From NCBI RefSeq assembly GCF_003334335.1, contig NZ_QOWQ01000153.1: DNA of 724 nt, one strand, 5' to 3'. Each line of letters begins with the position of its first letter. The stretch's first letter is position 1. Below the pieces are notes generated by a model. It worked only from the letters and a program-made list of their open reading frames with translations. It was not told the origin of the DNA and ran no database searches. The stretch comes from Escherichia coli (GTDB taxonomy: Bacteria; Pseudomonadota; Gammaproteobacteria; Enterobacterales; Enterobacteriaceae). Positions 1-443 of the stretch are shown one piece after another. The position numbers and the translations under genes were made by a program.

Positions 1-443
1 GCAAGCACCTCATTTTTTGTTGGGGTGCTTTTTTTCAATTCAGCGATATAGCACTCCAGTTTTTCAATGCGTGATTCAATATCATCGTTTTCTGACCGCA
101 ATGCCGTCGGTGGCGTCTTCAGAGAACCAGTAATTATTCCCGGTAGTTTTCCTCTGTAGGTTATCAACACATCCTGCGCCTCTAAAATTATGGGGCGCTT
201 TTCCGGCGACTGCTCATCCCCTTCACATAAAGCGGCAGCAATATCCATGAAAAACTGCTTCGCCTGTTTTTTCGCCTCAGCTTCGTAAAATTCCAGCGTG
301 GCACCTTCAGTACGGTCAAGACTAATCGCCACATTTGGCAACAACAGTGACGGATACCCACCAATTTCCAGTGCCACAGTAACAGTAATCTTATCCGGGT
401 AATTATTTATCCCTTTAACAACCAGTTTGTATTGTTTATTCAT
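1..443 (-). CDS. Hypothetical protein, function unknown; 5'-complete, 3' end beyond the window (at least 147 aa); not a recognisable endolysin
   Basis: Hand translation of the minus strand from ATG at 443..441 gives an uninterrupted frame to the window edge: MNKQYKLVVKGINNYPDKITVTVALEIGGYPSLLLPNVAISLDRTEGATLEFYEAEAKKQAKQFFMDIAAALCEGDEQSPEKRPIILEAQDVLITYRGKLPGIITGSLKTPPTALRSENDDIESRIEKLECYIAELKKSTPTKNEVL... The other two minus frames carry stops (e.g. at 10..12 and 35..37). A 147-codon stop-free run is unlikely by chance at about 44% GC. The ATG lies 4 nt after the holin stop and is preceded by GGGGAGAG, and is the first start codon after the in-frame stop at 506..504. Absent from the supplied ORF track. 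Confidence 0.75.
   Translation of the reverse strand, partial: MNKQYKLVVKGINNYPDKITVTVALEIGGYPSLLLPNVAISLDRTEGATLEFYEAEAKKQAKQFFMDIAAALCEGDEQSPEKRPIILEAQDVLITYRGKLPGIITGSLKTPPTALRSENDDIESRIEKLECYIAELKKSTPTKNEVL

What the first reader, a model, noticed from the sequence alone, without database searches (positions are those of the whole stretch)
1..443. Long minus-strand ORF missing from the supplied ORF track
The track lists only ORFs with an in-window stop. Translating the minus strand from the ATG at 443 gives 147 sense codons to the window edge, with an RBS and a 4-nt spacing to the upstream holin. Relying on the track alone would leave 60% of the window looking non-coding, or credited to the spurious antisense ORFs.
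Basis: seen in the sequence. Interest (0 to 1): 0.5.

Follow-up and report, generated by a model that had tools for sequence, protein, structure and literature searches.

The report
Known prophage YdfR-family gene, edge-truncated
The open frame is real: it is the first 147 of 211 codons of an already catalogued prophage gene of the YdfR/DUF1327 family, lying between the holin and endolysin genes, and it was missing from the track only because its stop codon lies outside the window.

Summary
The minus strand from the ATG at 443 is open for 147 codons to the window edge. It is the only one of six frames without a stop and the only one with phage-like codon usage. The ATG lies 4 nt after the holin stop, behind a GGGGAGAG ribosome-binding site.

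The window is 100% identical to a lambdoid prophage in E. coli JE86-ST05. There the frame runs 64 more codons to a stop, giving 211 aa. Residues 1-112 match Pfam DUF1327 (E = 1e-41). The exact protein is already in NCBI and UniProt as "YdfR family protein / Phage protein".

In about 80 related viral contigs the gene sits in the same place: 3-4 nt after a class II holin and upstream of an R21-like endolysin. A conserved ~75-residue beta-beta-beta-alpha N-domain carries highly mosaic C-terminal modules (114-330 aa in total).

The function is unproven. The only experimental lead is the E. coli K-12 paralogue YdfR (43% identical over the N-domain). It binds the catalytic half of RNase E and co-purifies with RNA.

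Verdict: an ordinary, already known gene, and the "missing ORF" is a track artefact. One minor curiosity: RefSeq calls it a truncated pseudogene.

The parts
3..443 (-). First 147 codons of a 211-codon YdfR/DUF1327-family gene. The stop codon lies 192 nt beyond the left edge of the window.
   Evidence: Open frame. Codon log-likelihood +37 bits in this frame only. Full ORF at L001 6282..6917 in a 100% identical genome. The exact 211-aa protein is in NCBI and UniProt.
219..443 (-). Residues 1-75: the conserved DUF1327 core domain, three beta strands followed by a long alpha helix.
   Evidence: Pfam PF07041, E = 1.3e-41. AlphaFold2 model of the N-domain: pLDDT 85.8, pTM 0.73. It matches AFDB DUF1327 models at TM up to 0.94. 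It is 43% identical to K-12 YdfR over residues 1-74. The smallest family members, 71-72 aa, consist of this domain alone.
108..218 (-). Residues 76-112: an optional module (SPEKRPIILEAQDVLITYRGKLPGIITGSLKTPP). It is covered by the Pfam match but predicted with low confidence.
   Evidence: The Pfam match extends to residue 112. pLDDT is 26-47 in the full-length model. The module is absent from K-12 YdfR and largely absent or replaced in P0074 and P0116.
33..101 (-). Residues 115-137: an amphipathic helix with a heptad pattern (I122, I126, L129, I133, L136), probably a short coiled coil.
   Evidence: Helix 122-137 in the AlphaFold2 model. Heptad spacing of hydrophobic residues. That it forms a coiled coil is inference only.
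451..458 (-). Shine-Dalgarno-like GGGGAGAG, embedded in the last codons of the holin gene.
   Evidence: Read directly from the sequence. The junction is conserved in essentially all related loci that include upstream DNA.
444..450 (-). Holin stop codon TAA (450..448) plus the 4-nt spacer GGCG (447..444) before the ATG.
   Evidence: The spacing is 3 or 4 nt in every related locus that includes upstream DNA, and 4 nt between essQ and ydfR in E. coli K-12.
448..663 (-). Class II (S21-like) holin gene, 71 aa, immediately upstream.
   Evidence: PHROG holin families phrog_9876 (E = 2.4e-40) and phrog_20. RefSeq annotation 'class II holin family protein'.

Best explanation
Identity (about 0.97 sure). 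Window 443..3 on the minus strand is the 5' 70% of a genuine protein-coding gene of a lambdoid E. coli prophage. The gene is a 211-aa member of the YdfR/DUF1327 family. It lies in the late lysis cassette between the class II holin and an R21-like, signal-anchor-release type endolysin. It is translated from its own ATG, 4 nt after the holin stop, using a Shine-Dalgarno sequence embedded in the end of the holin gene. It is therefore made late in infection together with the lysis proteins.

The protein is soluble and acidic. It has a conserved ~75-residue beta-beta-beta-alpha N-domain, a poorly ordered linker, and helical C-terminal modules that recombination exchanges between phages.

Mechanism (inferred, about 0.3 sure; still the best single guess). 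The N-domain docks onto the catalytic N-terminal half of host RNase E, possibly with RNA bound. This would modulate RNA decay during late phage development rather than take a direct part in breaching the envelope. The helical C-terminal part would provide oligomerisation or a variable partner-binding surface.
For: Gene identity:
- 100% DNA identity to E. coli JE86-ST05, where the frame is 211 aa.
- Pfam DUF1327 at E = 1.3e-41; PHROGs 2091, 1085 and 406 at E = 1e-62 to 1e-93.
- The exact protein is on 110 contigs, including CAR07228.1 and UniRef B7MSB4_ECO81.
- Codon log-likelihood is positive only in this frame.
- pN/pS for codons 1-75 is about 0.3-0.7 in frame for 18 of 19 comparisons; one near-identical pair gives 1.44.

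Context:
- In the related IMG/VR loci that include upstream DNA, the gene starts 3-4 nt after the holin stop. Where the downstream DNA is held, the endolysin follows 36-536 nt later.
- The order is the same in K-12 Qin: essQ-ydfR-rrrQ.

Protein properties:
- No transmembrane segment; pI 5.5.
- Confident N-domain model.

Mechanistic lead:
- Gopel et al. 2026 (PMC13232886) studied K-12 YdfR. It interacts with Rne residues 1-597 in a bacterial two-hybrid assay, and the first 72 residues suffice.
- In the same study, Rne 1-598 co-purifies with Strep-tagged YdfR, and DNase-resistant nucleic acid co-purifies as well.
- Those 72 residues are the domain shared with this protein, at 43% identity.
Against: - RNase E binding was shown only for the K-12 paralogue, which is 43% identical. 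It rests on two-hybrid and co-purification results, not on purified proteins.
- Overproducing K-12 YdfR changed few transcripts and did not affect growth.
- The authors could not exclude that a contaminant carried the co-purified RNA.
- The protein is acidic, which is unusual for an RNA binder.
- RefSeq/PGAP labels the gene an incomplete pseudogene in identical genomes.
- The few substitutions in the last 36 codons show no clear purifying selection.
Confidence: 0.9

Rival explanations
1. It is a cytoplasmic lysis-timing regulator. The protein would bind the cytoplasmic tail of the pinholin, or the endolysin, and so tune when lysis fires, as T4 RIII does for the T holin.
For: The position between holin and endolysin is invariant, with tight 3-4 nt coupling to the holin stop, in the ~80 related loci and in K-12 Qin. 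The protein is soluble, as T4 RIII is (own knowledge). Accessory regulators of this type of endolysin cassette have precedent, for example in phage Mu (PMC9239132, seen as title and abstract only). According to Gopel et al. (citing Paradis-Bleau 2014), a K-12 ydfR mutant scored in an envelope-integrity screen.
Against: There is no sequence or fold similarity to any known antiholin or lysis regulator. The gene is dispensable for the cassette architecture: phage 21-type cassettes are described as holin, endolysin and spanin genes only, without this gene (own knowledge; Stx-phage cassettes are described that way in PMC8136144). Overexpressing K-12 YdfR gave no growth or lysis phenotype. The highly variable C-terminus is hard to reconcile with a fixed lysis partner.
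Confidence: 0.2
2. It is accessory cargo (a 'moron') that has settled in a recombination hot-spot of the late operon. Its role would be directed at the host or at other phages, for example anti-defence or superinfection exclusion, and unrelated to lysis or RNase E.
For: The mosaicism is extreme. ORF length ranges from 114 to 330 aa, with exchangeable C-terminal modules and, in some loci, a convergent inserted gene. The family is small and confined to Enterobacterales phages: 62 representatives among 1.84 billion proteins, and only DUF1327 members in AFDB50. These are typical features of fast-evolving accessory genes.
Against: There is no hit to any PADLOC defence model; the best is E = 0.018 to Cmr5. 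No independent promoter was found for it on its own strand. Its conserved coupling to the holin indicates late-operon expression rather than lysogenic expression. Nothing direct supports this reading.
Confidence: 0.25
3. It is a decaying remnant: a gene truncated at its C-terminus relative to the 296-333-aa forms, and no longer functional, as RefSeq/PGAP annotates it.
For: PGAP flags it as 'incomplete; missing C-terminus' and annotates only codons 1-114, both in the identical genome and in a 97.7% identical one. Longer relatives exist that share residues 1 to about 204. Many database 'representatives' of the family are frameshifted fragments. No purifying selection is detectable in the last 36 codons.
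Against: The 211-aa frame is intact. The identical protein is seen on 110 contigs. It is also carried, at 98% identity, by the deposited phage genome PhiR5_1. The same C-terminal ending (...FEESKSLQ or ...FEEGKSLQ) closes variants whose N-terminal and middle modules are quite different (183, 176 and 169 aa), so it is a conserved alternative end, not a random truncation. The N-domain shows in-frame constraint.
Confidence: 0.08

Closest known systems
E. coli K-12 YdfR (b1555, UniProt P76160), Qin cryptic prophage
   Same: Same gene position: 4 nt after the class II holin gene essQ and directly upstream of the lysozyme gene rrrQ. Same N-terminal DUF1327 domain, 43% identical over residues 1-74. 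Both are soluble and acidic.
   Different: K-12 YdfR is only 103 aa. It lacks the 76-112 module and the helical C-terminal half of this 211-aa protein. RNase E binding and RNA co-purification were shown only for K-12 YdfR (PMC13232886).
Pfam DUF1327 (PF07041) and PHROG families 2091, 1085 and 406, all of unknown function
   Same: Strong profile matches: E = 1.3e-41 to Pfam, and E = 1e-62 to 1e-93 to the PHROGs. The predicted fold superposes on AFDB DUF1327 models at TM 0.8-0.94.
   Different: Nothing essential differs. This is one length variant (211 aa) among many (103-333 aa).
orf5 of Stx2-converting phage 86 and the long 'hypothetical protein' of Stx2a phage Stx2_95
   Same: Same slot in the lysis cassette, and about 87% identity over the shared N-terminal part.
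   Different: These genes are 268 and 329 aa with other C-terminal modules. Stx2_95 has no convergent antisense gene. Phage 86 diverges from about residue 118.
Double-stranded-RNA-binding domains (ADAR1 domain 3, RNase III, PKR, TRBP, Staufen)
   Different: The first helix of the RNA-binding domain is missing. Sequence identity is 10-16%, and the protein is acidic. The scores are in the range that unrelated small alpha/beta folds reach: HIV reverse transcriptase and Rv1738 score higher. This is a resemblance, not membership.
Phage-encoded modulators of RNase E, such as T7 gp0.7 and phiKZ Dip (own knowledge)
   Same: If the lead from K-12 holds, this would be another phage protein that contacts RNase E.
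   Different: Those proteins act on the C-terminal scaffold of RNase E, and are unrelated in sequence and fold. YdfR is reported to bind the catalytic N-terminal half. No effect on RNase E activity has been shown.

Membership tests
YdfR / DUF1327 (PF07041) | A significant match to the Pfam DUF1327 profile over the N-terminal region | tested here: met
   E = 1.3e-41, score 141, residues 1-112 against model positions 1-92 of 93.
YdfR / DUF1327 (PF07041) | The conserved family residues are present: Y5, V9, K10, D43, R44, E46, G47, A48, and the L50-A55 stretch LEFYEA | tested here: met
   These columns are invariant across the 19-sequence alignment, which includes K-12 YdfR, and all are present in the window protein.
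YdfR / DUF1327 (PF07041) | The genomic slot: immediately after a class II holin and before the endolysin of a lambdoid lysis cassette | tested here: met
   A 4-nt gap after the holin stop in the window. The same arrangement holds in the ~80 related loci and in K-12 Qin.
YdfR / DUF1327 (PF07041) | A beta-beta-beta-alpha fold of the N-domain | tested here: met
   AlphaFold2 pLDDT 85.8. TM 0.8-0.94 to AFDB DUF1327 models, including Qin prophage proteins.
RNase E N-terminal-domain binders (group II of Gopel et al. 2026) | Physical interaction with Rne residues 1-597 | not testable with these tools
   Shown only for K-12 YdfR (PMC13232886). The window protein shares 43% identity over the interacting region.
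Double-stranded-RNA-binding domain | An alpha-beta-beta-beta-alpha fold with basic RNA-contact regions | tested here: inconclusive
Holin or antiholin membrane proteins | At least one transmembrane segment | tested here: not met
   The maximum Kyte-Doolittle average over 19 residues is 1.18, compared with 1.70 for the neighbouring holin. No holin PHROG or Pfam hit was found.
Known anti-phage defence proteins (PADLOC) | A significant match to a PADLOC model | tested here: not met
   Only Cmr5 at E = 0.018, 13.6 bits. Three long-form relatives and the antisense protein gave no hit.

The most novel reading that the evidence does not exclude
DUF1327/YdfR proteins may be a family specific to lambdoid phages of late-expressed adaptors. 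Their ~75-residue N-domain, which resembles a double-stranded-RNA-binding domain, would dock RNA onto the catalytic domain of host RNase E (or shield RNA from it). The exchangeable C-terminal modules would select different targets. That would make a phage counterpart of the host adaptor RapZ, sitting in the lysis cassette of more than half of sequenced E. coli genomes.
Probability: 0.2. Interest if true: 0.55.

Novelty: already known. Interest (0 to 1): 0.15.

Why it matters
For the scan, the point is mostly methodological. An ORF track that requires an in-window stop codon hides edge-truncated genes. Here it hid 61% of the window, which is ordinary coding sequence.

Biologically the gene is very common: DNA similar to the ORF segment occurs in 2880 of 5426 complete E. 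coli genomes, Stx-phage lysogens among them. Yet its function is unknown. RefSeq also routinely demotes this length variant to a pseudogene fragment, so counts of "intact" lysis-cassette genes may be biased.

If the RNase E lead from K-12 YdfR extends to the family, it would add a widespread phage-host RNA-decay interface. Nothing in this window tests that.

Tried and rejected
- **Solved structures.** A profile search of PDB sequences found nothing; the best hit was E = 0.64 to a HORMA protein. Foldseek of the full-length model against PDB found nothing significant, but that model has low confidence (pLDDT 55).
- **Other libraries.** NCBIfam gave no hit. PADLOC gave no credible hit. Rfam found nothing near a gathering score in the 3-kb surroundings. 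Pfam scans of two long relatives found no further domain in their C-terminal parts.
- **Antisense-terminator idea.** I tested whether the strong terminator-like hairpin at window 3-30 on the + strand is the terminator of the convergent 86-aa gene just outside the window. Across 84 loci the two do not co-occur: 26 loci have the hairpin and only 5 of those have an antisense gene, while 24 of the 29 loci with an antisense gene lack the hairpin. The hairpin travels with the KKSTPTKNEVL coding module instead.
- **Frameshifted long form.** I considered that the 211-aa form is a frameshifted copy of the 296-333-aa forms. I rejected this because its C-terminal end is a distinct module shared with the 169-, 176- and 183-aa variants.
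- **Selection on the C-terminal module.** With only about 7 substitutions, pN/pS is uninformative.
- **Phage 86 comparison.** dN/dS against phage 86 over all 147 codons is confounded, because the sequences switch modules at about residue 118.
- **Literature.** One paper mentions DUF1327, in passing only. Apart from the RNase E interactome study, nothing functional turned up on ydfR.

Full report
**1. The observation**

The window has an ATG on the minus strand at 443..441. Translation from it runs 147 sense codons down to position 3, leaving two bases of the next codon.

- Over 1..443 it is the only one of six frames without a stop; the others have 4-15 stops.
- At this base composition, 147 open codons are expected with probability about 6e-5, and 1 of 20,000 shuffles was open.
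- The ORF lister omits the frame because it does not list ORFs that run off an end.
- The junction reads GGGGAGAG (458..451), TAA (450..448), GGCG (447..444), ATG. The 4-nt spacing and the Shine-Dalgarno-like motif are both present.
- The upstream 71-aa ORF (663..448) is a class II, S21-like holin: PHROG holin families at E = 2e-40, and the RefSeq annotation agrees.

**2. Is it coding?**

- A codon-usage log-likelihood trained on nine neighbouring phage genes scores this frame +37 bits and the other five -38 to -109 bits.
- For codons 1-75, I compared the window sequence with 19 distinct homologous DNA sequences, including K-12 ydfR. In 18 of the 19, non-synonymous change is lower than synonymous change in this frame (pN/pS about 0.3-0.7). 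One near-identical pair gives 1.44. Out-of-frame ratios are mostly 0.6-2.3, although for a few close pairs one shifted frame scores as low as the true frame.
- Over all 147 codons, against a 95% identical relative, 11 of 20 differences fall at third positions and dN/dS is 0.39.

**3. Extension and identity**

The window is 100% identical to four complete E. coli chromosomes, among them JE86-ST05. In that genome the frame continues without interruption to a stop 64 codons beyond the window edge, giving 211 aa at L001 6282..6917.

- Residues 1-112 match Pfam DUF1327 (PF07041) at E = 1.3e-41. The protein also matches PHROGs 2091, 1085 and 406, all of unknown function.
- The exact 211-aa sequence is in NCBI (for example CAR07228.1) and UniRef (B7MSB4_ECO81, "Phage protein"), on 110 contigs.
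- The deposited phage genome PhiR5_1 carries a 98% identical 211-aa gene, annotated "DUF1327 containing protein".
- DNA similar to the ORF segment occurs in 2880 of 5426 complete E. coli genomes, though only 603 of them cover at least 80% of it. It also occurs in many Stx phages.

The gene is therefore real and already catalogued.

**4. Context**

The surrounding genes in L001 run in this order: Q antiterminator, DNA methyltransferase, three tRNA genes, a SASA/NanS-type esterase, DUF1378, DUF826, holin, this gene, a convergent 86-aa gene, lysozyme, a spanin-type lysis protein, terminase.

I fetched 80 IMG/VR loci and checked the layout.

- Wherever upstream DNA is held, the gene's ATG lies 3-4 nt after a class II holin stop, with the GGGGAGAG-TAA junction conserved.
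- Where the downstream DNA is held, the R21-like endolysin follows at 36-536 nt.
- In K-12 Qin the order is the same, essQ-ydfR-rrrQ, with a 4-nt gap.

ORF length varies between 114 and 330 aa. Long forms abut the endolysin (36-55 nt away). Short forms leave about 320 nt, which is often occupied by a convergent gene.

Alignment shows a constant N-terminal core (residues 1-75), an optional 76-112 module, a heptad-patterned helix, and several alternative C-terminal modules. This is classic lambdoid mosaicism.

**5. The protein**

- It is soluble, with no transmembrane segment, and acidic at pI 5.5.
- The full-length AlphaFold2 model is poor (pLDDT 55). It is confident only over residues 4-72, gives low confidence over 73-118, and predicts helices after that.
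- A model of residues 1-80, built on a 33-sequence alignment, is good: pLDDT 85.8, pTM 0.73, three strands and one long helix.
- Against AFDB50 it matches only DUF1327 proteins of Enterobacterales: Escherichia, Shigella, Salmonella, Hafnia, Yersinia, Providencia, Morganella and Rosenbergiella.
- The family is small, with 62 representatives among 1.84 billion clusters. The shortest genuine members are 71-72 aa, which is the N-domain alone.

**6. Mechanism**

What is shown here: this is a late-operon gene tightly coupled to the holin, and it encodes a soluble protein with a conserved small N-domain.

What comes from the literature: Gopel et al. 2026 (PMC13232886) studied K-12 YdfR.

- Its first 72 residues were recovered in a bacterial two-hybrid screen.
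- Full-length YdfR interacts with Rne 1-597.
- Rne 1-598 co-purifies with Strep-tagged YdfR, and so does DNase-resistant nucleic acid.
- Overproduction changed few transcripts and did not affect growth.

The interacting region is the domain shared with the window protein, at 43% identity. My best single guess, at about 0.3, is therefore an RNase E and RNA-associated late accessory protein. The weak fold resemblance to RNA-binding domains is compatible with that. The acidic pI and the mild overexpression phenotype count against it.

The rivals are:

- a cytoplasmic lysis-timing regulator, suggested by position (0.2);
- host- or phage-directed accessory cargo sitting in a recombination hot-spot (0.25);
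- a decaying remnant, as RefSeq annotates it (0.08).

The remnant reading is weakened by three points. The intact frame is seen on 110 contigs. It is carried by a deposited phage genome. Its C-terminal end is shared with variants that have different N-terminal and middle modules.

**7. Comparison and novelty**

All four features I used to define YdfR/DUF1327 membership were tested and met: the profile match, the invariant residues, the genomic slot and the fold. Membership of the double-stranded-RNA-binding domain, holin/antiholin and known defence families is inconclusive or not met.

The finding is an already known gene. Its absence from the track is an artefact of the in-window-stop rule. 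Interest is low, at 0.15.

The one mildly useful by-product concerns annotation. RefSeq/PGAP annotates only codons 1-114 as an "incomplete" pseudogene in identical and near-identical genomes. As a result, window 1..101 is unannotated there, although the frame is intact.

Noticed in passing
window 3-36, + strand (antisense to the ORF): An intrinsic-terminator-like element: a 10-bp stem (3-12 paired with 21-30), an 8-nt loop, then TTTTTC. Folding energy is -15.5 kcal/mol, z = -4.5 against shuffles. It would terminate transcripts running antisense to the gene. Across 84 loci it does not co-occur with the convergent antisense gene, and it travels with the KKSTPTKNEVL coding module. Whether it functions is unknown.
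   Followed up: partly
L001 6282-6623 (window 102-443); also L086 1482-1823: RefSeq/PGAP annotates the gene as a pseudogene fragment ('incomplete; missing C-terminus', codons 1-114 only) in the identical and a 97.7% identical genome. The 211-codon frame is intact, and GenBank and phage records annotate it in full.
   Followed up: yes
L001 6865-7125, minus strand of L001 (just outside the left edge of the window): A convergent 86-aa gene (phrog_2572, E = 4e-50; only a marginal Pfam DUF1823 hit at E = 0.04) overlaps the last 53 nt of the YdfR-family ORF. It lies between that ORF and the endolysin, inside an otherwise one-directional late operon. A different antisense gene, orf6, occupies the same slot in Stx2 phage 86.
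   Followed up: partly
window 646-663, minus strand: The holin begins MYQMEK, with Met1 and Met4. This resembles the dual-start holin/antiholin arrangement of S21 (own knowledge), but without an added positive charge between the two starts. Not analysed.
   Followed up: no
window 701-724, minus strand (L001 5996-6024; cut by the right edge of the window): A terminator-like hairpin (12 pairs, followed by TTTGTTGTTG) on the sense strand between the DUF826 gene and the holin gene. Late transcription under Q antitermination would presumably read through it.
   Followed up: no
protein cluster of L001 6282-6914: The 90%-identity cluster holding this protein also lists sequences named 'terminase small subunit' (P0122, P0124, P0128). 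They have no visible similarity to it. This looks like a clustering or database artefact.
   Followed up: partly
L004-L085, region between holin and endolysin: ORF length (114-330 aa) is inversely related to the gap before the endolysin: 36-55 nt for the 114-aa and 296-329-aa forms, and about 320 nt or more for most of the 148-211-aa forms. The whole holin-to-endolysin interval therefore behaves as a set of exchangeable modules. One 330-aa form (L018) has a 449-nt gap. A few database entries are holin-DUF1327 fusions (P0083, P0157), probably frameshift artefacts.
   Followed up: partly
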